Shown here: piece by piece, positions 12,326 through 27,899 of the stretch
Layout: every line of letters starts with the position of its first letter
How positions within the stretch are numbered: the stretch's first letter is position 1
NCBI GenBank assembly: GCA_018062965.1
Contig: JAGORG010000001.1
Span: 7,488 to 71,487 of the forward strand
DNA length: 64,000 nucleotides
Source: Minisyncoccota bacterium
GTDB taxonomy: Bacteria; Patescibacteriota; Minisyncoccia; Phycocordibacterales; UBA5272
Reading direction: 5' to 3'
The notes under the pieces: generated by a model
Database searches by the model: none
What the model was told of the DNA's origin: nothing
Seen by the model: only the letters and a program-made list of their open reading frames with translations
Position numbers and translations under genes: made by a program

Positions 12326-12369
12326 AAATCTGATTAATTATAACTTTACAGATTCGATACAATCTAAAA

Positions 12370-12933: not shown

Positions 12934-12944
12934 AGTAATCTTAC

Positions 12945-13613: not shown

Positions 13614-13685
13614 AATATAATACCATTTTCTAAAAAATATTTGAAATGCACAGGTGCGAAAAATATGATTAATATTTTTCGTAAA

Positions 13686-14639
13686 TTATTTTACATATTT
13701 TTGTAAGAATTTTAGTCCAGTCGCATCAGTATATTTCTCAATATCAAGCTCTCGAGAAAACAAGTCTGCGAGCTTTCTCTTCTCTTCTTGAGACACCTCG
13801 TTTATTTTAGGGATATTAATTGACTGGGGTTTGATATCCTTATATTCCTCAATGAATCTTTTTATTTCTTCTCCTCCATCTGTAAACAAACTTTCATCGA
13901 GTATAGACTGACCATCATAAGAAGCCCTTACTAAAGCGTTAAATACTTGGTCTTCTGGCACTCGAGAGAACGTAGCTATTTTGTTTACCAAAATATCAAT
14001 AAGAACTCTTCCAATATCGTATGTTTTATAATATCCTTCCTGAGCTAAGTGCGTATTGCCTGACCTTTTTAGATACTCATCTAAAACCATGTCAGCAATT
14101 TTCTCAACTAAACCTTCGTTAAAAGCTGTTAACACTGTTTCAAAATCACCACCTTCTTCGCTATATCTCTCTCTGCTTATACCTGAAAATCCCGTAGTAA
14201 CTTTATGTTCACCAACGTCTATGGCTTCCGTTTGCTCATTTTGTTGTGTTATATGTACTTGCTCATGCACTAAAAGTTTAAGGATAAGCAATCTCTTTCT
14301 CATCTTTTCTTTTAAAAGAGGCAGGACAAACTTGTAGTTCACTGGATTAAAACGAAGGAAACTTCTTTCCTTTTCTTCTCCTGATTCATCTGCTTCAAAT
14401 TCCGTTCCCGCACATGCGGCATAATAAAATACGTCATAAAAAAATTCTATATCTTCTCTGCCGACAAACTTCATCTGACTAACATCAAGACCACACTTTC
14501 TGTATATTTCCTCAAATACTCCTCGAAGTAAATCAAAATCAACCTTGTCCAAGTCTTGTTCAATTCTCTCCTTAGAGCCTTCAAAAACAGCTTCTTTTAT
14601 TTTCCCGTGAACTGATTCTTGTGATGGTAGCTTTTCCAT
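13686..14639 (-). CDS. hypothetical protein with HExxH motif (LLVHEQVHITQ), possible Zn-metallopeptidase
   Basis: motif only. Confidence 0.4.
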   Translation of the reverse strand: MEKLPSQESVHGKIKEAVFEGSKERIEQDLDKVDFDLLRGVFEEIYRKCGLDVSQMKFVGREDIEFFYDVFYYAACAGTEFEADESGEEKERSFLRFNPVNYKFVLPLLKEKMRKRLLILKLLVHEQVHITQQNEQTEAIDVGEHKVTTGFSGISRERYSEEGGDFETVLTAFNEGLVEKIADMVLDEYLKRSGNTHLAQEGYYKTYDIGRVLIDILVNKIATFSRVPEDQVFNALVRASYDGQSILDESLFTDGGEEIKRFIEEYKDIKPQSINIPKINEVSQEEKRKLADLFSRELDIEKYTDATGLKFLQKYVK

Positions 14640-14651
14640 AAAAATTAATAC

Positions 14652-16058: not shown

Positions 16059-16187
16059 AACAAAATTTTAACATAATTATTATGATAAGGTTACCAACAC
16101 ACTACAACTAGAACGCTCTTGATACTTACATTGATTTACATTACCAATGAAAACGTTTTTATAAATAAGATACCTGCTAAAAAGCAA

Positions 16188-16221
16188 AGCACGAGATATG
16201 TTGTACAACACATCTCGTGCT
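16188..16221 (-). terminator. long near-perfect palindrome AGCACGAGATATGTTGTACAACACATCTCGTGCT followed by T-run on minus strand (3' of R2)
   Basis: 17-bp stem. Confidence 0.6.
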
Positions 16222-16227
16222 AGCTGT

Positions 16228-16325
16228 CAATGGCGGAGGGTGGTAGACGAGATTAGAACCTATTGGGCTATCCCGTCCAATTACTTTTATGTCCCTAGCT
16301 TATCAGCAGAGACAGCGAACATCCA
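16228..16325 (-). other. R2: second tRNA-3'-half-like remnant (minus-strand ...GGTTCTAATCTCGTCTACCACCCTCCGCCA)
   Basis: same organisation as R1 (CTCCGCCA + terminator), about 100 nt between stop of 16326..16934 and the hairpin. Confidence 0.4.
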
Positions 16326-16934
16326 TTAAGATTTGCCATTCGACTTGGCCAATTTGCCCTTGTAGCGCTCTATACGCTTTTCCCAATCTCCACCCCACTT
16401 TTGGGCCAAAGCCGCCTCACAGAGCCGAATAGCGTCCTCTAGGCGGCCTTCTTTCTCCCGGATAATGGCAAGGTCCATATAGCCGACATGGGACGGTAAC
16501 TCTTGGTCACCGTACTCTTTCTTAAAGGCCTCGGCCGCTTCCGCGCTTATGGCTATCTGTTGCTCACATGCCTTGGTCGCCCGGTCCAAAGCGAAACTAT
16601 CCACGTCCCGGAAACGGTAATAAATATCTTTTTTGTTTTGATACAGGAAATGACGGTCGAGGACCGGAGCGCTTGCCTCCAACGCCTCCGCTTTTTCCAA
16701 TAGCTTGTAGGCAATGTTTCGGTCTTGCTCGGTCTTGAGCCACCCGGCCATAGTGGAGAGATAGCCGGTGGCGGAGCCACTCATTGAAAGAATGTCGCCC
16801 TCTACCACTCCACCGGGACCGTACACGGCAAGTATTCTTTTCCTCTCGGTATCACTAAAGACCGTGAGCCACCAATCGGAGAGGCCGTAGTATTTTATTG
16901 CGCCGCTTGGTTTTTTCGCAAAGAAAGAGAACAT
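16326..16934 (-). CDS. hypothetical protein (202 aa), helical/TPR-like
   Basis: ORF, roughly 50% GC. Confidence 0.45.
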   Translation of the reverse strand: MFSFFAKKPSGAIKYYGLSDWWLTVFSDTERKRILAVYGPGGVVEGDILSMSGSATGYLSTMAGWLKTEQDRNIAYKLLEKAEALEASAPVLDRHFLYQNKKDIYYRFRDVDSFALDRATKACEQQIAISAEAAEAFKKEYGDQELPSHVGYMDLAIIREKEGRLEDAIRLCEAALAQKWGGDWEKRIERYKGKLAKSNGKS

Positions 16935-16938
16935 AAAA

Positions 16939-17643
16939 TTAGCGAATAAACTTCACTTGGATACCGACTACTCCATACTTGGCTTCCTCGTCTTTTGAAT
17001 AATATTTGTATATACCCATGAGGTCGTCTTTGTTTATGCCACCAAACATAGTTGCTGGAAACGCGTCAAAGAGTTGAGAAAATGTTGGATAGTGAAATAA
17101 GTTGGTTATCTTAACTCGAATGATTTGCTCCGGGTCGCTCATTGCCGAAAACTCTATTTCGTCGCCGACGTTAAGAAGCTGTCTTTTCTCATCATTCAAG
17201 CGAACCTCAATGGTTTTAGAGCCGTCCTTTATCTTTCCAAAAGGATTGGGTTGGAGTTTCATTTTGTGAACGTAAACATTCCCGGCTTTCCCGTATGCTT
17301 CCATTTCGTATTTATTTTTCCTATATCCATTACGTGCCGTTTCAAGTTGGTATAAAAATGGGTGAATAAGCGGCTCTCTCATACTTTGTGCAACGTGCAC
17401 GAGTTCATGTTCCAAGTCGTTATCCAACGCATTGGGACTTATCAAAACCATATTTCCTAAAGCCATTGCTCGCGCACCTTTTTGATTTGGTAACCACCAA
17501 TACCACCAAAAACTTTTAACGTGAACCACTAATGCAAAAGGTGTATAAGAAAAAGAGAATTGTTTAGGAATGGAAACAAGCGCACCGCAAAAGCCAAGTA
17601 TGGTCCAAGGAAGATTTAAGATAATTGATAAGAATGTCCACAT
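16939..17643 (-). CDS. membrane-anchored HExxH (HELVH) metallopeptidase-like domain fused to C-terminal ASCH (PUA-like) domain
   Basis: LEHELVHVAQ; GKIKDGSKTIEVRLNDEKRQLLNVGDEIEF resembles ASCH GxKxxExR. Confidence 0.45.
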   Translation of the reverse strand: MWTFLSIILNLPWTILGFCGALVSIPKQFSFSYTPFALVVHVKSFWWYWWLPNQKGARAMALGNMVLISPNALDNDLEHELVHVAQSMREPLIHPFLYQLETARNGYRKNKYEMEAYGKAGNVYVHKMKLQPNPFGKIKDGSKTIEVRLNDEKRQLLNVGDEIEFSAMSDPEQIIRVKITNLFHYPTFSQLFDAFPATMFGGINKDDLMGIYKYYSKDEEAKYGVVGIQVKFIR

Positions 17644-17645
17644 GG

Positions 17646-20600
17646 CTAGATATTTCTTGTCCCTCGGCAGTACGGGAACTTTGAACAGCCATAGAACTTA
17701 CCGCGTCGGCCGTTCCTCAATATCATTTTCGCGGAACAGCGAGGGCAATCTACATTCGATAGGACCGGGGCCGGACGCTCGGCTCTTGCGCCGCTTCCGT
17801 GGGATTTACAGTAACGGCAGAAACGGCCGTATCCGGTAACCAAACTGTTGTCCTTAAAGTCCTCGTCCTCTCGTATCTCTTTGCACTTTGGGCATTCCTT
17901 CTTGTCCCCGTTTTGGAGGCCTTCGACTGTTTCTTGGATATTGTCGAGGAACCCATTGCGAGGGCTGTTTCTAAAAAGGTCGCTAATCCGCTCGTCCAAG
18001 GTAGCGATAGGATTTGTTCCGATATTGAACTTGTTTATACGCAAGAACTTATATCCGTAGCTCTCTAACACTTTCTCGCGGTACACGTCTCCCTCGGAAT
18101 AGTAATTCTTGTAGTTGAACTCGTTTACCTCATCAATATTCTTGAAGTGCTCGCGGAAACCGTCGTACTCGATAATAATTTTATGCTCGCGGTGGTTCTC
18201 GTCCTTGTACACCAAGAGGAAATCAACCTTGTAGTTGGCGTGCTGATAGCTAATATCCAACTGCTTTAGATATTTTCCAATCTCGAATTGCGGAATGAAC
18301 TCAATGCTATCTTTATTCTTTTGCCAGAACTCCGTTTGGTAAAACCAATTGAGAACCTCCGGCTCCATTTTCGAGCTTTGGTCAACGTCGGCCGAGGTCC
18401 TTTCCTTCTTGGCTTCTTCCAACACGTTGTAGTAATGACGCAAAGCGTCACCAATCGAGCCGTCGTACTTATCGAGCGGTTTGCTCAAGACAAAGTGCAT
18501 ACATTCTTTTGCACGGCTGAAACCGACGTTGAGACGCTGTACTTTTATCTTTCCGTCTTCCTCGCTATCAACGCTGTTGAGGTCCTTAATGAATACGCCC
18601 CATAGTTTGTCGGAAACCTCATTGGCAACCATTGAATAGAAAATGATGTCGCGTTCCTCGCCTTGGCAAGTATCGAACGTCATTATCTTGAGCTTGAGTT
18701 TGTCGAAATAGTAATCGCGCTCCGGTAGCTTGCTGATTTCGTCAATAAGGATTTTCTGTTGGTTCGTGTGCGGCGTGATAATTCCCACACTCAAACCTTT
18801 GTCGGCCTCACGAAGCGCTTGGAGTTCGGAGATTATTAACTCGATTTCTTTTCTATTGGTGTTTGGTATCAACTCAACTTTTCCGTCGCTCTCGGCAAAA
18901 GAGAACTTAATAACCTCGTCCATTGCCTTGCCGCGTATCTTCATTACCTGCAAGCTGTTTTGATAGAAATACTTGTTGGAGTAAGAAATGATTTCTTTGT
19001 ATCCTCGGAAATGCTTAAGAAGCTGGATATTGTAGTTGCTTATGAACTCGAAGAACTCAAGTATCGAGGTCTTGATGTCGAACTTGGCCAACTTCACTTG
19101 CTTTGCGTCCTCTTGGGAAACCTCACGTCGGAACACTTCCGCCAATGCGTTGAGATACTCTCGGTTTGTTTCCGACCTCGCTTGTGCGGCCTTTATGTTG
19201 CTGAACTGCCTCTTGTCTCCAAGAATAAGAACCTTCTTTGCGCGTATGAGAGCCGGGAACGCTTGCGCGATGCTGACCTGCGAGGCCTCGTCAATTATCA
19301 CCAAGTCGAATATGCCGGCTTCCAACGGTATGTATTCCGCGTAATCTCTAATGCCGGCCAATATGCAAGGGAACGCGTCTTTGAGTTTTGCGAACTGCTC
19401 TTTAGGGAACTGCTTTTTGTCACGGATAATATTTCGCAATGTCTCCGCGTCGTTCTTGTTGTGTTCGTAAAAATCAATGAGGCGTGAATCGAGAAGGTGG
19501 GTTACTTGGGTTGTGACGAGCGTTTCGACTTCCTTTTTGTGCGATGCGTAATTAAGTTTTGGGATACATCCGAAACGAGTTGAAATCGCATTCTTGAGGC
19601 CGGCAAATCTCATGGCCTTCTCAAACTCCATAGACGACATGTCTACGAGCTTATTCTTAAACCACGTCAAAATATTCTTATCCGAAATGCCGGTTTTCTT
19701 GAGTGACTTAGGGTATAGCTCGAAACCCTCCGAGAACTTTTCTACTTGCTCCATGAGCGAACCGGCAAGCTCTTTGCTTTCAGTAACTCCGTGCATGTCC
19801 GCAAGAAGGTCTGTAAGCGTCCCTAGATAATCTCCCTTGATTTCGACAAGGTAATCGCTGTGCTTCCTTATGGCGTTGAGGTGGTCGAAAATCTCAATCG
19901 CATTTCCAATATCCGAAAGCGACTCTTGGACCTTCTCGTATTTGGAGAATGGTAAGAGTGTACGGAAACGAGCGTTGAGCGCTTCAACTTTTGTACCAGC
20001 AAACAAGAAACCGAGCACCGGCAACTTTGCGTCACGACACTCTTTTACAAGCTCTTTTAGTTTTGGCAAATCCTCGTCGCTAAAATGTCCGAGGTTTGAA
20101 ATGGCAGAAAGTTTTGTCTCGTATTTTGCCGACACCTCAATAAGAGCGGCACTTACCGACGAGATTTGAGACAGAAAACCTACAAAGGCCTCTTTGGTTT
20201 TAATGTCCTCAATATCAACACCTAGGAACTTGGCAACATGGATAGCTTCAAGCTGATTTCTAAGGCCAAGGAGAAAAGCTCGCAATTCTTCAAAGTAACC
20301 AATCTCGTACTGGTTGGCTGAAAGCTCATCCACATCAAACAAGAAACTCTCTTTTTCGTAGTAGCTTTCGAGGTCGTAGTAGTCGCGGATTTCCTTTAGG
20401 TCCACGTCGCTGTACGCCACAATCTCGGCCTCAATATCTTCCTTCAAAGAGTTTTGCAACTTTGAAATATTTTCGGTGAGCACGTCGTAATCTTTCTTCA
20501 CCGCTCGGTGGTGAGCTTTGATTTTCTCGATTGTCGCCTTGGAAAGGATTTGGCTATACGTGTTTCCGGTTTTACCGAGACGGAGTATTGGATTTTGGAA

Positions 20601-22190
20601 ACCTTCCTCGTCGAAACGGACCTTATCCATTGTCTCGGTAATTTTGTCCTCGACAACATCAAGCGCTTCTTTCTTATCCGAAAGAACTAAGACGGATTGG
20701 TGCCGGAGTATCGCATCAAAAATGATTGCCGTAATCGTATGGCTCTTACCGGTTCCCGGTGGTCCCTCAACAACCAAATACTTACAGTTATCTTTGCGTA
20801 TGGCTGACAATATTTGTAGCTGTTCGCTGTTCAAGGGAATAGGGCTAGCAAATACGAGCTTGTCCGGTACGTCGGTCCCGTCCCATTCGCTCTCCACCTC
20901 GGGATTAACAGGGTCCGGGTTTTTGTGTATGAAATCTTCTACCAAAAGATTGAACATTTCCGCGAGTAGCCCCGTATCGGAGTTCAATTCCTGCAAGATT
21001 TCTTCGTAGTCGTTTACGAGTGCTTCGTCGGACTTGTCGAATAGGGAGAGATAAAGGGAGTTGGATACGCGCGCGTGTAAGCTCCGTGACAGTTGGGTTT
21101 GGTCGCTTGAAACATCAACCTTTTTGTCCAACTCGAAGTTGTTTACAATCTCGCTCAAAATGCTGTTGAGGAACTCGGGCAAATCGTTTTTGTGTTGTGA
21201 CAAATAGATAATACGCTCGGTAATTGAGCGAAGATTTCCGCGAGTACCTTTTTGGTTGTTGTATTCCTGAACTATGAACTCAAGCGCTCTCTTGTTGATA
21301 TAAACTTGCGAATCGAACTCAATCTTGAATACGTCGTTGTCCCGGCGCACGGTAAAGGGAGTATAGAAAATCGGATACTTAACCTTGTTGAAAGTGATGT
21401 CACAGAAATATAAATAGAAATCTTGCTTATCGAGAATGGCTCTGTTTCGGTCCATTTCAAACACCTCCGCGAAAAGGTCACCCACTTGGAAGCTCTCGAA
21501 AAAACCTAGAATGCTTGTCTTGATACTCTCGATGTCGAAAGCTGTTTTGAGTTCCTTGGCCGCGTTTACTTTCTCGTCGGCAATAAGATTTTTGAGAAGT
21601 TCGGAAACCTTGTTCTCAAGCATTCTTAGAAGAACCTCGGTAAGTTCTTCCTCCATTAGATAAATGTCGTTCTCGTCGCCGATGTCGAGGTTTTCGATTG
21701 ATTTCTCAATACTTCCAACGAACGGCAGTACCAATCCTTGTTTAACAATGCCGGCGGTATTTTCGAGAGAAACCGAAAGTCCTTTCTCGTATTCTTTTTT
21801 GTATAGGGCGGCCGCCTTTTCGATTTCCTCCGCTATCAATGCAAGAGTTTCCTTAACTTGTGTCGGCGATATTTTGCCGACTTGCAACGTAATCAAGTCG
21901 AGCAGGTTCTTCGGGAGGTTTGATTTGTAGACCCCTTTTTGGAGGGTGCTTAGAGCGTCTTTATCAAATGACTTTTTAATGAGCGAATGTATGTCTTTAG
22001 AAAAAGAGGGGTATTTGGCAAGATTTACGCCAATCAAAAGATTGTCCGGGTTGCGGAGCTTAACGGAGCGGCGCGGGTTTTTCCTCTTATGGAAATCCGT
22101 TTCGAGGAAGTCCATAAAATACTTCGCAACTTCCTTGACGAAAAGAAGATTGCCGGTGACCTGTTCTTTTTTAGTGGTTTCGGTAGGCAT
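17646..22190 (-). CDS. 1514-aa Upf1/DNA2-like SF1 helicase fused to DUF559/Vsr-like endonuclease domain and C-terminal topoisomerase-type C4 zinc ribbons; long N-terminal region of unknown function
   Basis: Walker A VVEGPPGTGKSHTI, Walker B LVIIDEASQV, motif TFDTCQGEERDIIF, then YKVDFLLVY...IIIEYDGFREH, then CPKCK...CRYCK...CPRCS...CSKFPYC. Confidence 0.75.
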   Translation of the reverse strand: MPTETTKKEQVTGNLLFVKEVAKYFMDFLETDFHKRKNPRRSVKLRNPDNLLIGVNLAKYPSFSKDIHSLIKKSFDKDALSTLQKGVYKSNLPKNLLDLITLQVGKISPTQVKETLALIAEEIEKAAALYKKEYEKGLSVSLENTAGIVKQGLVLPFVGSIEKSIENLDIGDENDIYLMEEELTEVLLRMLENKVSELLKNLIADEKVNAAKELKTAFDIESIKTSILGFFESFQVGDLFAEVFEMDRNRAILDKQDFYLYFCDITFNKVKYPIFYTPFTVRRDNDVFKIEFDSQVYINKRALEFIVQEYNNQKGTRGNLRSITERIIYLSQHKNDLPEFLNSILSEIVNNFELDKKVDVSSDQTQLSRSLHARVSNSLYLSLFDKSDEALVNDYEEILQELNSDTGLLAEMFNLLVEDFIHKNPDPVNPEVESEWDGTDVPDKLVFASPIPLNSEQLQILSAIRKDNCKYLVVEGPPGTGKSHTITAIIFDAILRHQSVLVLSDKKEALDVVEDKITETMDKVRFDEEGFQNPILRLGKTGNTYSQILSKATIEKIKAHHRAVKKDYDVLTENISKLQNSLKEDIEAEIVAYSDVDLKEIRDYYDLESYYEKESFLFDVDELSANQYEIGYFEELRAFLLGLRNQLEAIHVAKFLGVDIEDIKTKEAFVGFLSQISSVSAALIEVSAKYETKLSAISNLGHFSDEDLPKLKELVKECRDAKLPVLGFLFAGTKVEALNARFRTLLPFSKYEKVQESLSDIGNAIEIFDHLNAIRKHSDYLVEIKGDYLGTLTDLLADMHGVTESKELAGSLMEQVEKFSEGFELYPKSLKKTGISDKNILTWFKNKLVDMSSMEFEKAMRFAGLKNAISTRFGCIPKLNYASHKKEVETLVTTQVTHLLDSRLIDFYEHNKNDAETLRNIIRDKKQFPKEQFAKLKDAFPCILAGIRDYAEYIPLEAGIFDLVIIDEASQVSIAQAFPALIRAKKVLILGDKRQFSNIKAAQARSETNREYLNALAEVFRREVSQEDAKQVKLAKFDIKTSILEFFEFISNYNIQLLKHFRGYKEIISYSNKYFYQNSLQVMKIRGKAMDEVIKFSFAESDGKVELIPNTNRKEIELIISELQALREADKGLSVGIITPHTNQQKILIDEISKLPERDYYFDKLKLKIMTFDTCQGEERDIIFYSMVANEVSDKLWGVFIKDLNSVDSEEDGKIKVQRLNVGFSRAKECMHFVLSKPLDKYDGSIGDALRHYYNVLEEAKKERTSADVDQSSKMEPEVLNWFYQTEFWQKNKDSIEFIPQFEIGKYLKQLDISYQHANYKVDFLLVYKDENHREHKIIIEYDGFREHFKNIDEVNEFNYKNYYSEGDVYREKVLESYGYKFLRINKFNIGTNPIATLDERISDLFRNSPRNGFLDNIQETVEGLQNGDKKECPKCKEIREDEDFKDNSLVTGYGRFCRYCKSHGSGARAERPAPVLSNVDCPRCSAKMILRNGRRGKFYGCSKFPYCRGTRNI

Positions 22191-22193
22191 TTT

Positions 22194-22376
22194 TTATCTC
22201 CGTTTGCGAAGGTTGGAGTTTTCCTTAAGGAACTTTTGCAAGTCCGCTTCCTTAATGCGCCAGTAACCGACTTTTGTGGCCATTAAGCGCTTGCTATGGA
22301 TATACCGAAACACCGAACGCTCACTCACTCGCAAGCGTGTCGCAACCTCTCTTAGTGTAAGCAGTTTCTCTCCCAT
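22194..22376 (-). CDS. excisionase/AlpA/MerR-type HTH DNA-binding protein (60 aa)
   Basis: LTLREVATRLRVSERSVFRYIHSKRL...GYWRIKEADLQKF. Confidence 0.65.
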   Translation of the reverse strand: MGEKLLTLREVATRLRVSERSVFRYIHSKRLMATKVGYWRIKEADLQKFLKENSNLRKRR

Positions 22377-22404
22377 AAGGTTATTACAATTCTATTATTT
22401 CCAT

Positions 22405-22445
22405 TTCAAGTTGTCAAAATGTGTCAAGGTCGTTAAAATGGATAT
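22405..22445. promoter_or_regulatory. divergent promoter/operator region with two TGTCAA repeats 10 bp apart (TTGTCAAAATGTGTCAAGG)
   Basis: between divergently transcribed xis-like gene and 22446 operon. Confidence 0.4.
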
Positions 22446-23162
22446 GTGGGGTCAAATATGAAAATGACGATGAAAGTAAGTAAGGGTGAGTATAGAAAAA
22501 TCCTCTCCGCCTTCTCCGATAAGGCGGCTCTTGATATTCGACATTTATGTTCTGTTCTTCTTAAAGCAGAGTTAGAAGACCGGCTCGATATAGAGCGAAA
22601 TATTTTGGATATAGAAGATATTGCGGCAAGCGCTATACCGGAGAACCAACTAAAATCAATCTACGAAAGAATGACGGGCGATTTGGGGATTTTAAAAACA
22701 GCGACACCGGTTACCAAGAAAATGCTGAAACTAGATTTTAGCGGCTTGGAAATCAATACGGAAAACGCTATTACGCTTTCGCAAGTCGCCGACGAAATGG
22801 GCCGGCCGGCACATCCGCTTTGGAACAGAAAATCTAAGAGTGAACAGGAAGAAACTCCCGATGAAGATTTGTGGCTCGATGAGGAAAACGGCTTAATCCA
22901 TTTTCGAGGCAGAAAATGCAAGTTGGGTATCGGAGATATTGATTACTTTTTAATACAAACTTTACTTAAGTCCCCAATAGGTAAGCGAGTTGCCGAAGAC
23001 GATATTTTGGAAGCAGATGATTTTGTTCAACGCACCAGAAAAAGCAAAAAGTCACGACGTCTATATGACGCTCGTCGTCGTCTAAATAACAAAATGGCTC
23101 TTGATTTAGGGATAACAGAGTTTGTCGGTTTCGAGAAATCTTACTTTTGGAGAAATCAGTAG
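22446..23162 (+). CDS. hypothetical protein (238 aa)
   Basis: ORF. Confidence 0.45.
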   Translation: MGSNMKMTMKVSKGEYRKILSAFSDKAALDIRHLCSVLLKAELEDRLDIERNILDIEDIAASAIPENQLKSIYERMTGDLGILKTATPVTKKMLKLDFSGLEINTENAITLSQVADEMGRPAHPLWNRKSKSEQEETPDEDLWLDEENGLIHFRGRKCKLGIGDIDYFLIQTLLKSPIGKRVAEDDILEADDFVQRTRKSKKSRRLYDARRRLNNKMALDLGITEFVGFEKSYFWRNQ

Positions 23163-23242
23163 AGCAATAATTATTGGCTCGATGTGAGTCAAGTTGGTTC
23201 TCATGCTCCTTAGCTACGCTACACACGTAGCTTTTTTGCTAT

Positions 23243-23503
23243 GTGATTATGACGATGAAAAAGGACAATTCGGTTAGCTTCTATCGCACGTCGGACCTCG
23301 CGTTGACGTGTGCTCTTTGCATTGTCGGCTTTATTGCCGAGGACGTGGAAGCTATCGGTCCTACAAGGTCGGTCTTCGTCTTCAAGAGTTCGGAAGAACT
23401 AAGCACAGCAATAAAACGCTACTGGATGAGCGAGCTTCGAGTGGAACCGCAAGCATATTTCAATATGCTTAAAGTCCTTAAAGCTCGGCTCTATCAGCGT
23501 TGA
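23243..23503 (+). CDS. hypothetical protein (86 aa)
   Basis: ORF. Confidence 0.35.
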   Translation: MIMTMKKDNSVSFYRTSDLALTCALCIVGFIAEDVEAIGPTRSVFVFKSSEELSTAIKRYWMSELRVEPQAYFNMLKVLKARLYQR

Positions 23504-23504
23504 G

Positions 23505-23741
23505 ATGCTTTCGCCCGAAGCATTGCAGGAGTTCAAGGATATTTGGAGGGATGAGTTCCATGAGGAAATCCCTGACCATTTTGCTGTTGAGCAAGCAATC
23601 AATCTCTTGGCGATGTTCAACGTAATCTACCGACCTCTCCAACGAGAGTGGCTAAATGACTATGAAAATAAAGAGCATAGGAGAAATCCTCAAGGACCGA
23701 GACAAGAACCAAACCCCGGACCTAAGAGGACTTCCGATTAG
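23505..23741 (+). CDS. hypothetical protein (78 aa)
   Basis: ORF; overlaps next ORF by 86 nt. Confidence 0.3.
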   Translation: MLSPEALQEFKDIWRDEFHEEIPDHFAVEQAINLLAMFNVIYRPLQREWLNDYENKEHRRNPQGPRQEPNPGPKRTSD

Positions 23742-24165
23742 GCCACGAAATAAGCAAAACCGTTTCTACATAGATAACGAGTTTCTCGAAAGAGGTTATG
23801 TAGCAAGGTTCAAGAAGTTCCCACTCATTCCCGTATACGCCGTCTTGTGTAAGTACGCCAACGCACGAACGCAAAAATGTTGGCCGGCGTGCGAAACGAT
23901 AATAAAAGAAACCGGAATAAAGAACCGAAATACTGTTTGGGCTGTCATTACTCTCTTGGAGAAATTAAGCATCATCTATACAGAGCGTTCGAGCGGTAGA
24001 ACCTCGAATAGATACTGGATGCTCGATAGCAAATATTGGAAAGAGCCGAACAGTATCACGGTTGATACGGTTAGGGATTGGGTCAACAAGAACCGTATCA
24101 AAAAGAAACCAACCGTATCAAATGAGGAAACGAACAGTATTCCCGGTGATACGCGAAGTCATTAA
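23656..24165 (+). CDS. HTH protein resembling phage/plasmid replication-initiator or DnaD-like N-terminal domain
   Basis: YAVLCKYANARTQKCWPACETIIKETGIKNRNTVWAVITLLEKLSII; true start uncertain. Confidence 0.4.
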   Translation: MTMKIKSIGEILKDRDKNQTPDLRGLPIRPRNKQNRFYIDNEFLERGYVARFKKFPLIPVYAVLCKYANARTQKCWPACETIIKETGIKNRNTVWAVITLLEKLSIIYTERSSGRTSNRYWMLDSKYWKEPNSITVDTVRDWVNKNRIKKKPTVSNEETNSIPGDTRSH

Positions 24166-24197
24166 ATCTTAGAAATCAAATAAATATATAAATCACT

Positions 24198-24545
24198 ATG
24201 ACAATGAAAAAAGAAAAACGATTGCCAATTGGTTACGTGCTTGGTGAGAAAAAGCAGGTTGTTCTATCAAACGACCAAGAAGTTATTACGGCGCTCTTTG
24301 GTTACTTTGCTCGAATGCATAGCGAAGCACATAGTCGAGCCACCAAACGAGGAATTGCTGAGGCAAAGAAGCGATGCGAAACATCCGAAGCTAATGAAGT
24401 CATTGCTTCAGCTAGAGGCAAGGGACATGTTGCTCACCGCTTTCTTAAAAAGCCATTGGCCTTAGACGGAAAGAAACTATTTGTGAATAAATCCAGCTTT
24501 CTAAAGGTACATCGACTAACGAGAGCACCGCGCGCGAGTGTCTAA
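24198..24545 (+). CDS. hypothetical protein (115 aa)
   Basis: ORF. Confidence 0.35.
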   Translation: MTMKKEKRLPIGYVLGEKKQVVLSNDQEVITALFGYFARMHSEAHSRATKRGIAEAKKRCETSEANEVIASARGKGHVAHRFLKKPLALDGKKLFVNKSSFLKVHRLTRAPRASV

Positions 24546-24587
24546 ACCCAATTATTCAAATATTGGCCCCACCTATACCTCGAAGCT

Positions 24588-24926
24588 ATGAAATGCAAAC
24601 ATGTAAAACCAAATAAAAGTAAGTGCAAAGCCAACGCAATGGTAGGTAAAGATTGTTGCTTCATGCACAACCCGGATACACGTAAGAAGCTCCTTGAAGC
24701 ATCACGCAAAGGTGGCAAGTCGAATAAGCGTGAACGCCGCAAACTACGGATACTCAAAACACGTTTAAAGACCCCCGAGGGTATCCGCAAACTCCTTGAA
24801 GAAACGGTGGTCCAACTTAATGACGGAAAGATTGATGAGAAGACCGCAAACACCGTTGCATACCTGTCCTCCAACCTAATGAAAGCCCTAGAACTCAAGC
24901 ACGATAAGGACTATTGGGAGCTATAA
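24588..24926 (+). CDS. hypothetical basic protein with N-terminal Cys/His cluster
   Basis: ORF. Confidence 0.35.
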   Translation: MKCKHVKPNKSKCKANAMVGKDCCFMHNPDTRKKLLEASRKGGKSNKRERRKLRILKTRLKTPEGIRKLLEETVVQLNDGKIDEKTANTVAYLSSNLMKALELKHDKDYWEL

Positions 24927-24959
24927 AAATGCTTCCAAAGCACCCCCTAAAAATGTTAT

Positions 24960-25170
24960 GATTTATATGCTACCCGTTAGAACAAATACCGCACGAGGTT
25001 TTCGTCTTTTTTGGCGCCGTTTATGGGCTGAAAGGGGCAGTCAAGACCTCCGTAAACGGTGCCTCGTGCATTCGTTCTTGCGGGTAGCAGGCAACTTGGC
25101 TGTCCCTTTTTGCGTTGTCCCGCGAGAGAGAGCTGTTGCCTCTTATAAGAATTATTTAGCTACGAATAAT
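24960..25170 (+). other. GC-rich, highly structured non-coding segment (nested inverted repeats GCACGAGG/CCTCGTGC, GGCGCCGTTTA/TAAACGGTGCC, CTTGCGGG/CCCGCGAG, GGCAAC/GTTGCC); candidate ncRNA or regulatory leader
   Basis: read directly; the track ORF 24958.. is coding only from the ATG at 25174. Confidence 0.35.
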
Positions 25171-25173
25171 TTT

Positions 25174-25611
25174 ATGGAGGTACAAAAGAAAAAGTATAGT
25201 AAGGGTTTGATAGTGTTCGTGTCTGTCTGTGTGTTTTTCCTAGTGGTTGTTATCGGTTTAAGTTCCGGGTCCGGCGATAAGCAGGCGGAGCAAAAAACGG
25301 AAGCGGTCGCAACCGAACAAACCGACGCCTCAAAGAAAGAAGCACAGGAAGGGCTTGAAGCACTCTTGGCTCTCTCAAAGCAAAGCGGTATCGTCGCGTC
25401 GTACGAGTTTTCCGATACTGCAAATGTTGTTTACGTGACCGATGTTTGGTATTCGCTCGATGTTCCTTTCAAGAAGGACCTCGTTGGAAAAATCGCATCA
25501 CTCAAAGAAGCCGCAACCGGCTACCACACGTTCCAAGTTATGAATGTAAAGTCGAATGAGAAAGTGGCAGAGGTTACCTCGTTTAGCGGCTCGATAGAGA
25601 TTTATAAATAA
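25174..25611 (+). CDS. membrane-anchored hypothetical protein (146 aa; MEVQKKKYSKGLIVFVSVCVFFLVVVIG...)
   Basis: start moved to in-frame ATG preceding the TM helix. Confidence 0.45.
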   Translation: MEVQKKKYSKGLIVFVSVCVFFLVVVIGLSSGSGDKQAEQKTEAVATEQTDASKKEAQEGLEALLALSKQSGIVASYEFSDTANVVYVTDVWYSLDVPFKKDLVGKIASLKEAATGYHTFQVMNVKSNEKVAEVTSFSGSIEIYK

Positions 25612-25616
25612 AACCC

Positions 25617-27248
25617 ATGAAGAATACTGATACTCAAATCAAATACGGAAACTACAACCGCAAAAGTAGTGAAGACCGTGAGCGGCAGATTTTGAGTATC
25701 GGTTCCCAAATTGATTGGGCGAAAGAAGCGGCGGAAAAGCACGCCGTTAAAATCCTCAAGTCATACCAAGAGGAAAAGTCGGCAGAGGCACCCTATCAAC
25801 GTGCCGTCTTCGACCAAATGGTTAAAGATATTCATGCCGGAATAATCAACGCACTTATTTGTTGGAAGTTGGACCGTCTCGCTCGTAATCCCGAAGAAGC
25901 CGGCATCATTCTTGGAATGTTAAAGCGCGGTGAGATAAAGCACATCATCACCAACGAGCGAGAATACCGACCTGAAGACAACGCCATTATCTCCTATGTG
26001 GACTTTGGAATGGCGGACCAGTATTCGCGTGATTTAAGCAAGAACGTTAAGCGAGGTCTAAAAACAAAGCTCAATATGGGTTGGTATCCGAGCCGTGCTC
26101 CATTGGGATATTTGAATACTAAAATTGCGGAGAAAGGTGAGAACACAATCGTAAATGACCCAGAGCGTTTTGAGACAGTAAAGCGCATGTGGCAAACAAT
26201 GCTTACCGGGAGGTATACGGCTCCCCAGATATTGCAGATAGTGAATAACGAATGGAAGTTTAAGACACGAACAACTAAGAAGTTCGTCGGGAAGCCCCTT
26301 TGCCGAGCAACTATCTATAAGATTTTCAATAATCGTTTTTATTGCGGTTTTTACGAGTTCCCGAAAGGAAGCGGAGAATGGTACCGAGGCAAGCACGAAC
26401 CAATGGTTACGGAGGACGAGTTCGAGCAGGTCCAAATGTTGCTCGGCAATAAGAAACGTCCGCGCCCTTTGACGCGTCGGTTCGCTTTTACCGGCCTAAT
26501 GCGTTGCGGAAATTGTGGCGCAATGATTACGGCAGAGGAAAAGATAAAAAGGCAAAAGAATGGAAACGTACACCAGTACATTTATTATCGTTGCACAAAG
26601 CGCATAGACGAGAAGTGTCCCGAGAAAACGGTTGAATTAAAAGAGCTTACCGGGCAGATTGATTTGCTTATCCGTGGCCTCACTATTTCCGACAAGTTTG
26701 CGGCTTGGGCAATCCGTTACCTCCACGAGGTCCGACAAAACGAAGCGAAAAGCCATGAGGAAATGTTCACCAACAAACAGAAACGACTTACCGACGTTGC
26801 AAAGCAAATGAACAATCTCTTACTAAAATATACGTCCTCCGAAAACTCCACCGGTGACCTCATTAACGATACGGAATATAAGACATTAAAGCTCGCTCTT
26901 ACGAGAGAAAAATCTGCGCTTGAAGGTGACTTACAAACACAGAGCAAAGAAATGGAGAGGTGGATTGAGTTGAGCGAACGGACTTTCCACTTTGCCCGTT
27001 ACGCAAGCACTTGGTTTGAAAAAGGCGACCTAGAAACTAAAAGAGCCATTTTTGCCTGTTTAGGTTCGGACCTCATCGTAAAAACCCAAAAGCTCAACAT
27101 ACAACTGCATAAACCGTTCCAATTCATTTTCGATAACCTTGAGGAAATAGAAAAAGAATTGGTTACGGTTAGAACCTCAGAAAGTGAAGTATTTATGGGC
27201 CAGAAAGTATATTTGGACCCAAGTTGTCTTACGTTGCGGAGGAGGTGA
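25617..27248 (+). CDS. large serine recombinase (integrase) paralog 3 (543 aa)
   Basis: YNRKSSEDRERQILSIGSQ ... LICWKLDRLARNP; zinc ribbon CGNCGA...YYRCTK; last 12 nt overlap tRNA-Ser 3' end. Confidence 0.85.
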   Translation: MKNTDTQIKYGNYNRKSSEDRERQILSIGSQIDWAKEAAEKHAVKILKSYQEEKSAEAPYQRAVFDQMVKDIHAGIINALICWKLDRLARNPEEAGIILGMLKRGEIKHIITNEREYRPEDNAIISYVDFGMADQYSRDLSKNVKRGLKTKLNMGWYPSRAPLGYLNTKIAEKGENTIVNDPERFETVKRMWQTMLTGRYTAPQILQIVNNEWKFKTRTTKKFVGKPLCRATIYKIFNNRFYCGFYEFPKGSGEWYRGKHEPMVTEDEFEQVQMLLGNKKRPRPLTRRFAFTGLMRCGNCGAMITAEEKIKRQKNGNVHQYIYYRCTKRIDEKCPEKTVELKELTGQIDLLIRGLTISDKFAAWAIRYLHEVRQNEAKSHEEMFTNKQKRLTDVAKQMNNLLLKYTSSENSTGDLINDTEYKTLKLALTREKSALEGDLQTQSKEMERWIELSERTFHFARYASTWFEKGDLETKRAIFACLGSDLIVKTQKLNIQLHKPFQFIFDNLEEIEKELVTVRTSESEVFMGQKVYLDPSCLTLRRR

Positions 27249-27324
27249 GATTCGAACTCACGGTCCGGTTGCCCAGACTCTTGTTTTCAAGACAAGTGCA
27301 ATAGACCAACTCTGCCACTCCTCC
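27237..27324 (-). tRNA. tRNA-Ser (anticodon TGA), class II
   Basis: GGAGGAG/CTCCTCC acceptor, D GCAG AGTTGGTCTATT GCAC?, anticodon stem CTTGT/ACAAG loop CTTGAAA, long variable arm, T-arm GTGAG TTCGAAT CTCAC, discriminator G. Confidence 0.8.
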
Positions 27325-27374
27325 CTGTTTCTTTACAGTCGAAATAATTTACCACATTTTCACATTTTTAACAA

Positions 27375-27830: not shown

Positions 27831-27899
27831 TAATCCAGTTTACCACAAGATAAGCTCCTATGGTCAAATGACAAAAAATATTGTAGTATCTGATGTATC

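What the first reader, a model, noticed from the sequence alone, without database searches (positions are those of the whole stretch)
16326..22376. 1514-aa Upf1-like helicase + DUF559 nuclease + zinc-ribbon fusion with peptidase-ASCH and TPR-like partners: candidate defence module
One polypeptide combines SF1 Upf1/DNA2-type helicase motifs, a Vsr/DUF559-like endonuclease fold and topoisomerase-type C4 zinc ribbons. It also has a 450-aa N-terminal domain of unknown function.
Helicase-nuclease fusions of this type (for example Nhi-like proteins) act in anti-phage defence.
It is co-transcribed downstream of an xis-like HTH and upstream of a membrane HExxH-ASCH protein and a TPR-like protein, inside a mobile element. 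This is typical genomic context for defence cargo.
Basis: partly seen in the sequence, partly recalled or inferred. Interest (0 to 1): 0.6.

Follow-up and report, generated by a model that had tools for sequence, protein, structure and literature searches.

The report
Standalone Hhe-like helicase-nuclease on mobile element
A 1514-residue protein that joins an unknown N-terminal domain, an Upf1-type helicase, a Vsr-type DNA-cutting domain and zinc ribbons sits on a strain-variable mobile element in a Paceibacterota genome. It is most likely a single-gene anti-phage or anti-plasmid defence protein distantly related to the known Hhe system, and the two downstream genes are local passengers rather than partners.

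Summary
Four tightly packed minus-strand ORFs lie between a strong promoter-like site and a terminator: a 60-aa HTH_17 protein, the 1514-aa helicase, a 234-aa HExxH-ASCH protein and a 202-aa weakly TPR-like protein.

The large protein has an uncharacterised N-domain (aa 1-450) with no Foldseek match in PDB or BFVD. It then has an Upf1-like SF1B helicase with a roughly 350-aa helical, hypervariable insertion. Next comes a Vsr/MTES_1575 nuclease (hhalign 96.6% to the Hhe nuclease domain), followed by two C4 zinc ribbons.

It lies on an 11-kb element (16239-27235) carrying a serine recombinase gene, beside tRNA-Ser. The site is empty in a 91%-identical relative and polymorphic within one metagenome.

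The family is widespread but patchy: at least 533 clusters at 50% identity, more than 20 phyla including archaea, 45-66% identity. It sits among restriction-modification genes, SIR2, PARIS, MADS and integrase genes.

ASCH and TPR are not conserved partners. They occur in about 1 of 79 loci, and ASCH is swapped out in the sister element. Small HTH genes of three unrelated families recur upstream.

The protein fails the Hhe, ProA, PDC-S37 and Mokosh membership tests. Verdict: a new, unnamed variant of Hhe-type single-protein helicase-nuclease defence. The function is inferred, not shown.

The parts
22389..22417 (-). Promoter-like site (TTGACA-17-TAGAAT, 11/12) upstream of the HTH gene. A divergent plus-strand site lies at 22411-22439.
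22194..22376 (-). 60-aa HTH_17 / excisionase-family DNA-binding protein, 3 nt upstream of the helicase. Probably a transcriptional regulator of the helicase gene; a recombination directionality factor is the alternative.
   Evidence: Pfam HTH_17 3e-12. TIGR01764 1.6e-9 and MADS1-like. Small HTH genes of at least 3 unrelated families lie directly upstream in about 19 of 78 loci.
17646..22190 (-). 1514-aa helicase-nuclease (GenBank MBP9782137.1), the conserved unit of the finding.
20841..22190 (-). N-terminal domain, aa 1-450, mixed alpha/beta. It is family-specific and carries invariant motifs YFMDFLETDFHK (24-35), FYLYF..YPIFY.P (258-278) and FDKSDEALVNDYE (384-396).
   Evidence: AF2 model pLDDT 80. 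No Foldseek hit with E<0.03 in PDB or E<0.004 in BFVD. No Pfam hit. Profile search finds 533 representatives, and the complete ones listed are 1310-1715 aa. The link to DUF4011 is weak.
20421..20840 (-). Helicase domain 1A, N-terminal part (aa 451-590): Walker A G476-S483 (K482) and motif Ia LSDKKEALDVV.
19371..20420 (-). All-helical insertion in domain 1A (aa 591-940). Its core, about aa 600-880 (nt 19551-20393), is hypervariable.
   Evidence: AF2 secondary structure. Mean pairwise identity is 38% in this region against 71% elsewhere. Nucleotide homology to the 72%-identical relative is lost over 19632-20324.
18471..19370 (-). Helicase 1A C-terminal part plus 2A (aa 941-1240): motif II D967-E968-A-S, motif III LGDKRQ, motif V TFDTCQGEERD, motif VI QRLNVGFSRAKE.
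   Evidence: Pfam AAA_30 and AAA_12. Foldseek hits Aquarius, SETX/Sen1, IGHMBP2, Upf1 and Dna2, E 4e-8 to 1e-4.
17991..18383 (-). Vsr/MTES_1575 (DUF559-like) PD-(D/E)xK nuclease domain (aa 1270-1400), with D1323, E1341, D1343 and H1348 invariant.
   Evidence: hhalign 96.6%, E 5e-10 against Hhe-type MTES_1575 domains. Recurrent weak Pfam hits in 5 of 6 diverged members. BLASTP colinearity with Hhe.
17796..17903 (-). First C4 zinc ribbon (C1433, C1436, C1458, C1461).
   Evidence: The four Cys are conserved in the close family and present in about 75% of the broad family.
17649..17759 (-). Second, topoisomerase-I-type C4 zinc ribbon (C1482, C1485, C1502, C1508).
   Evidence: Pfam Zn_ribbon_Top1 1.7e-11, 44.1 bits against a cut-off of 32. 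Absent in about half of the broad family and in the Priestia homologue.
16939..17643 (-). 234-aa protein: hydrophobic N-terminus, HELVH motif, C-terminal ASCH domain. Element-specific passenger, not a conserved partner.
   Evidence: Pfam ASCH 2.6e-7. One non-adjacent hit in 79 loci. Replaced in L088.
16326..16934 (-). 202-aa helical protein with sub-threshold TPR similarity. Retained only in the sister element.
16188..16221 (-). Intrinsic-terminator-like hairpin (15-bp stem plus T-tract) ending the four-gene transcription unit.
16231..16262 (.). tRNA-3'-end-like remnant (TGGCGGAGG...GATTAGAACC) holding the left junction of the element. Near-identical strains diverge exactly at 16238|16239.
16239..27235 (.). 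About 11-kb integrative element carrying the operon, several ORFs with no Pfam match, an HTH_36 protein and a large serine recombinase.
   Evidence: Left end. Right end from L098/L101 homology starting exactly at 27236. Empty site in L103. GC 43-46% against 31-37% in the adjacent element.
25617..27248 (+). 543-aa large serine recombinase, the presumptive integrase of the element. Its 3' end overlaps the tRNA-Ser 3' end.
   Evidence: Pfam Resolvase, Recombinase and Zn_ribbon_recom
27236..27324 (-). tRNA-Ser(TGA), whose 3' end is the right boundary of the element.

Best explanation
The 1514-aa protein is a self-contained, single-polypeptide nucleic-acid-targeting immunity protein of the Hhe type. 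It is carried as cargo on a serine-recombinase integrative element inserted beside tRNA-Ser in a Candidatus Paceibacterota genome.

Shown here:
- It has an intact Upf1-like SF1B helicase core.
- It has an intact Vsr/MTES_1575 nuclease fused C-terminally in the same order as in Hhe.
- It has one or two C4 zinc ribbons of the topoisomerase-I ssDNA-binding type.
- It has a family-specific N-domain and a hypervariable helical insertion in helicase domain 1A.
- The gene is strain-variable and horizontally spread across bacteria and archaea.
- It is embedded among defence and mobility genes.
- Its only recurrent neighbour is a small upstream HTH gene.

Inferred mechanism:
- The HTH protein represses or tunes the operon.
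- The N-domain and the variable helical insertion act as the recognition or autoinhibition module that senses an invader cue, such as a phage protein or an unusual DNA or replication intermediate.
- The zinc ribbons load the enzyme on single-stranded DNA.
- The helicase translocates 5'->3' using ATP and delivers the Vsr-like nuclease, which nicks or cleaves invader DNA, or host DNA in an abortive mode.

The downstream ASCH and TPR-like genes are independent passengers of this element.
For: Architecture and intact catalytic motifs:
- The Upf1-like fold is supported.
- Colinear homology to the validated defence protein Hhe runs from motif II through the nuclease: 24% identity over 526 aa, E 2e-20 (plasmid hits).
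- Hhe protects against lambda, T3, T7 and PhiV-1 and needs its Vsr-domain glutamate (bioRxiv 10.1101/2022.06.16.496414, citing Gao et al. 2020). The equivalent residue here is E1341.
- The best PADLOC and NCBIfam hits are all defence helicases: PDC-S37, MkoA/MkoC, Hhe and ProA.

Mobility and non-essentiality:
- The site is empty in L103.
- Near-identical strains have their breakpoint at 16238|16239, and both junction variants occur in one assembly.

Patchy distribution: 77 loci in more than 20 phyla plus Woesearchaeota and Aenigmarchaeota at 45-66% identity.

Neighbourhood:
- Serine recombinases lie within 6 kb in 24 of 80 loci.
- Neighbours hit MADS, SIR2, AriA, type I and type IIG restriction-modification enzymes, SoFic, PDC-S04/13/19/21, Cas4-like proteins, tyrosine integrases and IS21.

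No conserved partner was found.

Upstream HTH genes from at least 3 unrelated families occur in about 19 of 78 loci. In my knowledge this is a pattern known for regulators of defence genes.
Against: - No experiment exists for any family member.
- The protein scores far below the curated cut-offs of every named defence family, so the homology is limited to the helicase and nuclease cores that many non-defence proteins share.
- Neighbourhood enrichment was not compared with a genomic background.
- The family is unusually well conserved for a defence gene (about 60% identity across phyla). It is often directly adjacent to serine recombinases, which could instead point to a role in the biology of the elements themselves.
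- Upf1-like helicases and the top PADLOC relatives (Mokosh) act on RNA, so the substrate is uncertain.
- The sensor role of the N-domain and insertion is pure inference.
Confidence: 0.6

Rival explanations
1. One reading: a four-gene defence system in which the helicase-nuclease works obligatorily with the membrane HExxH-ASCH protein and the TPR-like protein.
For: The four ORFs have 2-4 nt gaps and share one promoter-like site and one terminator. TPR202 is retained with the helicase in the sister element. The whole block recurs identically in other assemblies of the same population.
Against: ASCH234 and TPR202 each have one hit among 79 homologue loci, neither adjacent to the helicase. ASCH is replaced by an unrelated 445-aa gene in the element with the 98%-identical helicase. 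Both are absent at 72% identity. Immediate downstream genes elsewhere are unrelated. Neither protein has a PADLOC hit.
Confidence: 0.07
2. The helicase-nuclease serves the mobile elements rather than the host. It could be an element-encoded replication, processing or transfer enzyme, an inter-element competition weapon, or an addiction (toxin) module with the upstream HTH as antitoxin or repressor.
For: Serine recombinase genes lie within 6 kb in 24 of 80 loci and directly abut the helicase in several: L021 +9 nt, L042 +15, L023 +17. The family is very conserved across phyla. A small upstream HTH plus a large potentially toxic nuclease resembles XRE-type toxin-antitoxin layouts. Two IMG/VR contigs carry it.
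Against: The other genes of the window's element (238, 169, 115, 112 and 217 aa) do not travel with the helicase: only one hit among the 79 loci, plus the 217-aa gene in the sister element L088. Most loci show no recombinase. The recombinases that do occur belong to different families, including tyrosine integrases. An element replication or transfer function would be expected to co-occur with a fixed element backbone. No relaxase or replication-initiator linkage was seen.
Confidence: 0.18
3. Same defence role, but the target is RNA. The Upf1-like helicase would translocate on invader transcripts, as proposed for Mokosh and the CoCoNuT CnuH helicases, and the Vsr-like domain would degrade RNA.
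For: The closest solved folds are RNA helicases: Aquarius, SETX/Sen1, IGHMBP2 and Upf1. There are strong PADLOC hits to MkoA and MkoC. CoCoNuT type III-B fuses a Upf1-like helicase with a helical insertion to a Vsr-like nuclease and was predicted to target RNA (PMC11090510).
Against: Vsr/DUF559 enzymes and topoisomerase-I zinc ribbons are DNA-directed in all characterised cases (my knowledge). The Upf1-like clade also contains ssDNA enzymes such as Dna2, which is among the hits. No RNA-binding domain (CSD, SmpB-like, HEPN) is present in the protein.
Confidence: 0.12
4. A host DNA-repair or recombination helicase-nuclease of the Dna2, RecD or AddA type.
For: It is a helicase plus nuclease fusion with a fold hit to Dna2 and a weak hit to AddAB. 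It lies between ruvX and ruvA in the window.
Against: It is absent from a 91%-identical relative, where ruvX and tRNA-Ser are about 340 bp apart, and polymorphic within one population. The recD models score 12-22 bits against cut-offs of 310-671. The distribution is patchy and consistent with horizontal transfer.
Confidence: 0.03

Closest known systems
Hhe (Gao et al. 2020 single-gene system; NCBIfam NF042953, PADLOC Hhe; DUF4011-helicase-MTES_1575-DUF3320)
   Same: Both are a single large polypeptide. Both have a roughly 450-aa N-terminal region before the P-loop and a Upf1-like SF1 helicase whose domain 1A is split by a large helical insertion. Both have a Vsr/MTES_1575 nuclease immediately after domain 2A, with the catalytic E.DG..H motif aligned. 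Both occur in mobile or defence-island contexts.
   Different: The NCBIfam score is 115 bits against a cut-off of 2000. There is no Pfam DUF4011 hit, and profile-profile support for N-domain homology is only P about 0.01 over 37 columns. The insertion is about 350 aa here against about 900 aa in Hhe. The C-terminus is one or two zinc ribbons instead of DUF3320. Identity in the shared core is only 24-26%.
PDC-S37 (PADLOC phage-defence candidate, untested)
   Same: It is the best PADLOC hit (4.8e-44). The model length (1550) and the position of motif II (about 930-940 against 966 here) suggest a similar overall layout.
   Different: Only the helicase stretches align (two segments, roughly a quarter of the model). 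I found no paper on it and had no sequences for direct comparison.
CoCoNuT type III-B CnuH (Bell et al. 2024, PMC11090510)
   Same: It is a Upf1-like helicase with a coiled-coil or helical insertion fused directly to a Vsr-like PD-(D/E)xK nuclease, with zinc ribbons in the family.
   Different: CnuH is encoded with McrB-like GTPase (CnuB) and McrC-like (CnuC) partners. No such genes are near the window gene or recur near homologues. No SmpB-like or OB N-domain was detected.
Mokosh (MkoA/MkoB, MkoC)
   Same: The helicase core is of the COG1112/Upf1 type, with PADLOC E about 1e-37.
   Different: Mokosh uses a PLD-family nuclease. Here the nuclease is Vsr/MTES_1575 and no PLD domain is present.
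Nhi (nuclease-helicase immunity, Staphylococcus)
   Same: It is a single protein combining a nuclease and a Upf1-like SF1 helicase and acting in defence (my knowledge).
   Different: In Nhi the nuclease is N-terminal (my knowledge). Here it is C-terminal and of the Vsr type. No Nhi model appeared among the PADLOC hits at E<=0.1.
Eukaryotic and archaeal Dna2, Upf1, IGHMBP2, Senataxin, Aquarius
   Same: They share the SF1B RecA-like core fold and motifs.
   Different: They are housekeeping enzymes with different accessory domains, below 20% identity, and with no Vsr nuclease.

Membership tests
Upf1-like SF1B helicases (Pfam AAA_11 + AAA_12) | Walker A, motif II DExx, motifs III-VI and both RecA-like domains of the Upf1 type | tested here: met
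   AAA_11 64 bits and AAA_12 65 bits, both above the cut-off of 27. Motifs are invariant in the family. Foldseek to Aquarius, SETX, IGHMBP2, Upf1 and Dna2, E 4e-8 to 1e-4.
Hhe | Whole-protein score at or above the NCBIfam NF042953 cut-off (2000 bits) | tested here: not met
   115.5 bits, helicase region only. PADLOC Hhe 75 bits.
Hhe | N-terminal DUF4011 domain | tested here: inconclusive
   No Pfam DUF4011 hit in the query or in 6 diverged members. In three hhalign runs with different profiles the best local match was the same motif at the same distance from the P-loop (ours 257-293, Hhe 244-291). Support is weak: P 0.011-0.19, probability under 4%.
Hhe | MTES_1575/Vsr-like nuclease directly C-terminal to helicase domain 2A, with the catalytic E.DG..H motif | tested here: met
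   hhalign 96.6%, E 5e-10. Colinear BLASTP. E1341, D1343 and H1348 are invariant.
Hhe | C-terminal DUF3320 (present in some Hhe-like proteins) | tested here: not met
   No DUF3320 hit; the C-terminus is two C4 zinc ribbons. DUF3320 was detected in only one of the Hhe-like comparators scanned (Salinibacter) and not in Vibrio Hhe, so this feature is not strictly defining.
Hhe | Demonstrated anti-phage activity dependent on the nuclease | not testable with these tools
   Needs a phage challenge with E1341A and K482A mutants.
ProA (NCBIfam NF058533) | Whole-protein score at or above 1500 bits | tested here: not met
   148 bits, aa 881-1232 only. No literature on ProA was found.
PDC-S37 (PADLOC candidate) | Full-length match to the 1550-position model | tested here: not met
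   148.6 bits in two stretches; the best covers model positions 928-1194 only.
Mokosh | PLD-family nuclease (MkoB, or fused in MkoC) | tested here: not met
   No PLD domain in the protein or in its operon.
CoCoNuT type III-B | Linked McrB-like GTPase (CnuB) and McrC-like (CnuC) genes | tested here: not met
   No such domains among window neighbours, nor among the 25 most frequent families listed for 150 neighbours of homologues.
Nhi | N-terminal nuclease domain preceding the helicase | tested here: not met
   The N-domain has no nuclease-family hit in Pfam or PADLOC and no fold match. The nuclease is C-terminal.
RecD/AddA-type housekeeping repair helicases | Model scores above cut-off, and conserved syntenic presence in relatives | tested here: not met
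   TIGR01447 21.7 bits against 310; PRK10875 12 bits against 671. The gene is absent from the equivalent site in L103 and variable among near-identical strains.
tRNA-associated integrative element with a large serine recombinase | Recombinase gene at one end, boundary at a tRNA 3' end, empty site in relatives | tested here: met
   The 543-aa recombinase has Resolvase, Recombinase and Zn_ribbon_recom domains and abuts tRNA-Ser. Homology with L098 and L101 starts exactly at 27236. The left junction is at 16238|16239. The site is empty in L103. Exact att core repeats were not resolved.

The most novel reading that the evidence does not exclude
This would be an unnamed, widely mobile family of one-protein immune effectors, with at least 533 clusters at 50% identity. 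A previously undescribed N-terminal fold plus a hypervariable helical insertion in the helicase would act as the invader-recognition module. The family has crossed the bacteria-archaea boundary recently (45-66% identity between CPR bacteria, many other phyla and DPANN archaea). It may be a major, so far overlooked component of immunity in ultra-small uncultured lineages (Patescibacteria, DPANN), which is why culture-based screens have missed it.
Probability: 0.3. Interest if true: 0.6.

Novelty: new variant of a known kind. Interest (0 to 1): 0.45.

Why it matters
If the defence role is confirmed, this adds a distinct branch to the Hhe-type helicase-nuclease immunity proteins. The branch is found almost only in metagenome-assembled genomes: 28 of the 77 species-representative loci are Patescibacteria and 2 are DPANN archaea.

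Defence repertoires of these episymbiotic, reduced-genome organisms are poorly known. A 4.5-kb single gene kept on small integrative elements suggests a strong selective benefit.

The family offers a clean system for asking how Upf1-like helicases are coupled to a Vsr-type nuclease. It could also show what the conserved N-domain and the hypervariable insertion recognise. The mechanism of Hhe itself is unresolved, so a compact and highly conserved relative could help.

A homologue on a Priestia megaterium plasmid gives an experimentally tractable entry point.

Tried and rejected
- Conserved partners. tblastn of ASCH234, TPR202 and all other element proteins against 79 homologue loci, plus all-versus-all clustering of 1032 neighbouring ORFs, found no conserved partner.
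- N-domain as DUF4011. Three hhalign runs with increasingly diverse profiles gave a consistent but non-significant motif match. I treat this as a lead only.
- Programmed inversion or a shufflon acting on the hypervariable region, considered because serine recombinases are often adjacent. No long inverted repeats lie in or around the gene, so I rejected this.
- Exact att direct repeats at the element ends. Only degenerate tRNA-3'-like remnants were found.
- Phage origin. Two weak partial hits among 50,697 phage records and only two IMG/VR contigs.
- Literature on ProA and PDC-S37. Nothing usable.
- Rfam scan of the window. Only the seven tRNAs.
- PADLOC on the other genes of both elements. Only weak hits: PDC-S10-like metallophosphatase and a mad8-like P-loop protein.

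Full report
**1. What is at the coordinates**

The region 16326-22376 holds four minus-strand ORFs separated by only 2-4 nt:
- a 60-aa protein (22194-22376);
- a 1514-aa protein (17646-22190);
- a 234-aa protein (16939-17643);
- a 202-aa protein (16326-16934).

A near-consensus promoter-like site (TTGACA-17-TAGAAT) lies at 22417-22389 on the minus strand. A 15-bp-stem, T-tailed hairpin lies at 16221-16188 on the minus strand. Co-transcription is therefore plausible.

An independent assembly (L106) is 100% identical over 15797-23466. The exact proteins are deposited from a Candidatus Paceibacterota MAG on a 162-kb contig. The large protein is MBP9782137.1, named only 'topoisomerase DNA-binding C4 zinc finger domain-containing protein'.

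**2. Anatomy of the 1514-aa protein**

Pfam gives AAA_11 (aa 453-589), AAA_30 (962-1036), AAA_12 (1053-1234) and Zn_ribbon_Top1 (1480-1514, above the gathering score). There is a weak MTES_1575 hit (1315-1398, E 0.006), and nothing for aa 1-450.

*Helicase.*
- An AF2 model of aa 441-1514 (pLDDT 72) matches Aquarius, Senataxin/Sen1, IGHMBP2, Upf1 and Dna2 in the PDB, E 4e-8 to 1e-4. PDB sequence hits are to IGHMBP2, Upf1 and Sen1. This is an Upf1-like SF1B helicase.
- Domain 1A is interrupted between motif Ia and motif II by an all-helical insertion of about 350 aa (aa 591-940).

*Nuclease.*
- I compared a profile of the family's aa 1270-1410 with the MTES_1575 domains of six Hhe-like proteins. 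Probability was 96.6%, E 5e-10, over 101 columns. The motifs S.ME, vDF, IEYDG..H and D..R..LE.YG..f.R aligned.
- Five of six diverged family members repeat the weak Pfam hit at the same place.

*Conservation.*
- Across 71 full-length representatives that are at most 50% identical to each other, several residues are at least 90% conserved. These are Walker A (K482), DEAS (D967, E968), motifs III, V and VI, and nuclease residues D1323, E1341, D1343 and H1348. Both enzymatic activities are therefore under selection.
- The first zinc ribbon (C1433, C1436, C1458, C1461) is present in about three quarters of the broad family. The second, topoisomerase-type ribbon is present in about half.

*N-domain and variable region.*
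- The N-domain model (pLDDT 80) is mixed alpha/beta. It has no Foldseek match with E<0.03 in the PDB or E<0.004 in BFVD.
- Its most conserved motifs are YFMDFLETDFHK, FYLYF...YPIFY.P and the acidic FDKSDEALVNDYE.
- Residues about 600-880 are hypervariable, with mean pairwise identity 38% against 71% for the rest. Nucleotide similarity to the 72%-identical homologue disappears exactly there.

**3. The family**

- A search of 5.8 billion proteins returned 1869 hits. The best 120 are nearly all 1505-1530 aa long and 59-98% identical over the full length.
- A profile of the N-domain alone found 533 representatives of 50%-identity clusters among 1.84 billion. Among the 150 listed, the complete proteins are 1310-1715 aa. 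All six diverged members scanned keep the helicase core, and five of them repeat the weak nuclease hit. The N-domain therefore seems specific to this protein type.
- In GTDB species representatives, 77 loci were recovered, all from MAGs or uncultured isolates. The lineages include:
  - 28 Patescibacteria;
  - Syntrophaceae, Methylomirabilis, Zixibacteria, Elusimicrobia, Bacteroidota, Nitrospiraceae and Ignavibacteria;
  - Planctomycetota, Acidobacteriota, Actinomycetota (including Bifidobacterium), Chloroflexota and several Proteobacteria (including Francisella);
  - two Woesearchaeota.
- An Aenigmarchaeota copy was also seen. Identities across these lineages are 37-66%, mostly 45-66%. The peptide-pattern search is biased towards close relatives of the query, so the CPR share may be inflated.
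- Among 72,556 plasmids only one true member exists, a 1367-aa protein on a Priestia megaterium plasmid. It is 35% identical from the N-domain to the first zinc ribbon.
- The 50,697 phage records gave only two weak partial hits to the helicase region. IMG/VR has two contigs.

**4. Mobile, non-core context**

The window gene lies between the core genes ruvX (10107-10562) and ruvA (28596-29156).

- *Empty site.* In a 91%-identical relative (L103), ruvX is followed after about 340 bp by tRNA-Ser, tRNA-Arg and ruvA, with no island.
- *Right boundary.* In 93%-identical relatives (L098, L101), similarity to the window starts exactly at 27236, the 3' end of tRNA-Ser, and the left side is different DNA.
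- *Left boundary.* Contigs that are 99.97% identical to window 9738-16238 (L084, L085) diverge exactly at 16238|16239. This lies inside a tRNA-3'-end-like remnant (TGGCGGAGG...GATTAGAACC). A similar remnant sits at about 10655.
- *Polymorphism.* The same assembly that gave L085 also contains a contig (L107) spanning the window's junction. Both arrangements therefore coexist in one population.

The island 10564-27235 is thus two tandem elements:
- a low-GC element (10564-16238, GC 31-37%) with a 439-aa serine recombinase;
- the helicase element (16239-27235, GC 43-46%) with a 543-aa serine recombinase abutting tRNA-Ser.

**5. Partners**

*ASCH234 and TPR202.*
- Each has a single, non-adjacent tblastn hit among 79 homologue loci.
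- The genes directly downstream of the helicase in other loci are unrelated to them.
- In the sister element (L088), the HTH and helicase block is 92.8% identical at nucleotide level (98% at protein level) and TPR202 is kept (90% nt). The ASCH gene, however, is replaced by an unrelated 445-aa gene.
- At 72% identity (L089, L090) both are gone.
- They are therefore element-specific passengers. The slot after the helicase behaves like an exchangeable cassette.

*Recurrent neighbours.*
- Large serine recombinases lie within 6 kb in 24 of 80 loci, and some directly abut the helicase.
- A roughly 520-aa DUF2779 (Cas4-like) gene lies immediately downstream in 8 loci.
- An N6/N4 methyltransferase cluster occurs in 10 loci.

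*Defence and mobility genes.* I scanned 150 ORFs within 3 kb of the helicase in about 55 loci.
- PADLOC matched MADS (mad3, mad8), SIR2, AriA, type I and type IIG restriction enzymes, SoFic and PDC-S04/13/19/21.
- Pfam found serine recombinases, tyrosine integrases and IS21.
- I did not compute a background expectation.

*Upstream HTH genes.* About 19 of 78 loci have a small HTH gene ending within a few bases of the helicase start, and these belong to at least three unrelated families:
- XRE-type in 8 loci;
- HTH_17, as in the window, in 6 further loci (7 counting the window);
- a MerR-like type in 3 loci.

Non-orthologous replacement at a fixed position argues that HTH60 is a regulator of the helicase gene rather than the element's excisionase. 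The HTH_17 subtype does tend to co-occur with serine recombinases, so a directionality-factor role is not excluded. I put it at roughly 65:35.

**6. Relation to known systems**

- *Database hits.* The best PADLOC hits are PDC-S37 (4.8e-44), MkoC, MkoA and Hhe. The best NCBIfam hits are ProA (148 bits, cut-off 1500) and Hhe (115 bits, cut-off 2000). All cover only the helicase stretches. The protein is therefore not a member of any named family in libraries dated up to June 2026.
- *Hhe is the nearest validated relative.*
  - Vibrio tubiashii Hhe (1915 aa) has DUF4011, a helicase split by an insertion of about 900 aa, and MTES_1575.
  - It aligns colinearly with the query from motif II through the nuclease.
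  - Hhe protects E. coli against lambda, T3, T7 and PhiV-1 and is inactivated by a glutamate-to-alanine change in the Vsr domain (bioRxiv 10.1101/2022.06.16.496414).
- *N-domain versus DUF4011.* Whether the N-domain is a diverged DUF4011 is unresolved. Three hhalign runs gave the same top local match, at the same distance (about 215 aa) from the P-loop. The match was ours 257-293 'FYLYF..YPIFY.P..v.r....f.i.fd' against DUF4011 'LfLalGFLEW...aPL.lvPV.i.k...y.l.y'. Support was only P 0.011-0.19.
- *CoCoNuT type III-B CnuH.* It also fuses an Upf1-like helicase with a helical insertion to a Vsr-like nuclease, but it works with McrBC homologues that are absent here.
- *Mokosh and Nhi.* Mokosh needs a PLD nuclease, and Nhi has an N-terminal nuclease. 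Neither applies.

**7. Mechanism**

*Shown:*
- intact helicase and nuclease active sites;
- zinc ribbons of the type that bind single-stranded DNA in topoisomerase I;
- a family-specific N-domain;
- a fast-evolving helical insertion;
- a mobile, patchy, defence-island-like distribution;
- a recurrent upstream regulator.

*Inferred:*
- HTH60 controls expression.
- The N-domain and variable insertion sense an invader-derived cue or keep the enzyme autoinhibited.
- The zinc ribbons engage ssDNA.
- The motor moves 5'->3', as in the Upf1-like clade.
- The Vsr-like domain cuts DNA.

An RNA target, a role in the life of the elements themselves, and a toxin-antitoxin-like addiction function remain possible.

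**8. Verdict**

The sequence observation is right. The 'defence cargo on a mobile element' reading is well supported for the helicase alone. The partner hypothesis is not supported.

The protein represents an unnamed branch of Hhe-type helicase-nuclease proteins, common in uncultured lineages. I classify it as a new variant of a known kind. It is of moderate interest and is testable through the Priestia plasmid homologue.

Noticed in passing
window 10564-16238: A second, low-GC (31-37%) integrative element sits in tandem. It carries a 439-aa large serine recombinase, a metallophosphatase (weak PDC-S10 hit, 7.5e-10), a P-loop NTPase (weak mad8 hit) and two ORFs (317 and 468 aa) with no Pfam or PADLOC match. 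The recombinase cluster has 32 members, so this element is common in the population. It may be another defence cargo.
   Followed up: partly
window ~10654-10690, 16231-16262 and 27236-27324: Two degenerate tRNA-3'-end-like remnants (TGGCGGAG...TTAGAACC) lie at the left ends of the two elements, alongside the intact tRNA-Ser. This is consistent with serial integration at one tRNA site. Exact att cores could not be defined.
   Followed up: partly
window 27236-27972 versus L103:1489-1754: tRNA-Ser is inverted relative to its flanks compared with the island-free relative L103. A 151-aa HNH endonuclease gene (27375-27830) between tRNA-Ser and tRNA-Arg is present in the window and in L098 but absent in L103. 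The locus has been rearranged repeatedly.
   Followed up: no
L088:14542-15879 versus window 16939-17643: There is a cassette swap inside an otherwise conserved operon. The ASCH gene is replaced by a 445-aa gene (weak DUF1176 hit) whose start overlaps the helicase stop codon, while the flanking helicase and TPR-like genes remain 90-93% identical at nucleotide level.
   Followed up: partly
L002, L009, L011, L051, L068, L069, L071, L074 (downstream of the helicase): A roughly 500-560-aa DUF2779 protein (Cas4/RecB-like nuclease, PADLOC Cas4 about 3e-7) is encoded in eight loci, immediately after or overlapping the helicase stop in five of them. It could be a subtype-specific partner.
   Followed up: no
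L068, L070, L071, L074, L076 (about 50-260 nt after the helicase match): In five loci the helicase match ends at about aa 1462-1481 and a related 155-222-aa ORF follows. The zinc-ribbon C-terminus may be split off or frameshifted in this subgroup.
   Followed up: no
window 21003-21041 (aa 384-396): An invariant acidic motif FDKSDEALVNDYE lies in the N-domain, at the end of a beta-strand and the start of a helix in the AF2 model. It could be a metal-binding or catalytic site, or a docking surface.
   Followed up: no
family alignment, P0029 versus P0116: This pair is 100% identical in the hypervariable insertion but only 85% identical elsewhere. Conversely, 116 pairs are over 75% identical outside the insertion but under 45% inside it. 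This hints at recombinational exchange or diversifying selection on the insertion.
   Followed up: partly
L080:5593-9696 (Priestia megaterium plasmid NZ_CP065336): This is the only family member found in a cultured organism: 1367 aa, 35% identity, lacking the second zinc ribbon. It sits next to damage-repair (Y-family polymerase-like), YolD-like and cold-shock genes.
   Followed up: partly
L085 and L107 (both from GCA_020047435.1): One assembly contains both the junction seen in the window (L107, spanning 16196-19134) and an alternative junction that diverges at 16238 (L085). The element's presence or position is therefore heterogeneous within the sampled population.
   Followed up: yes
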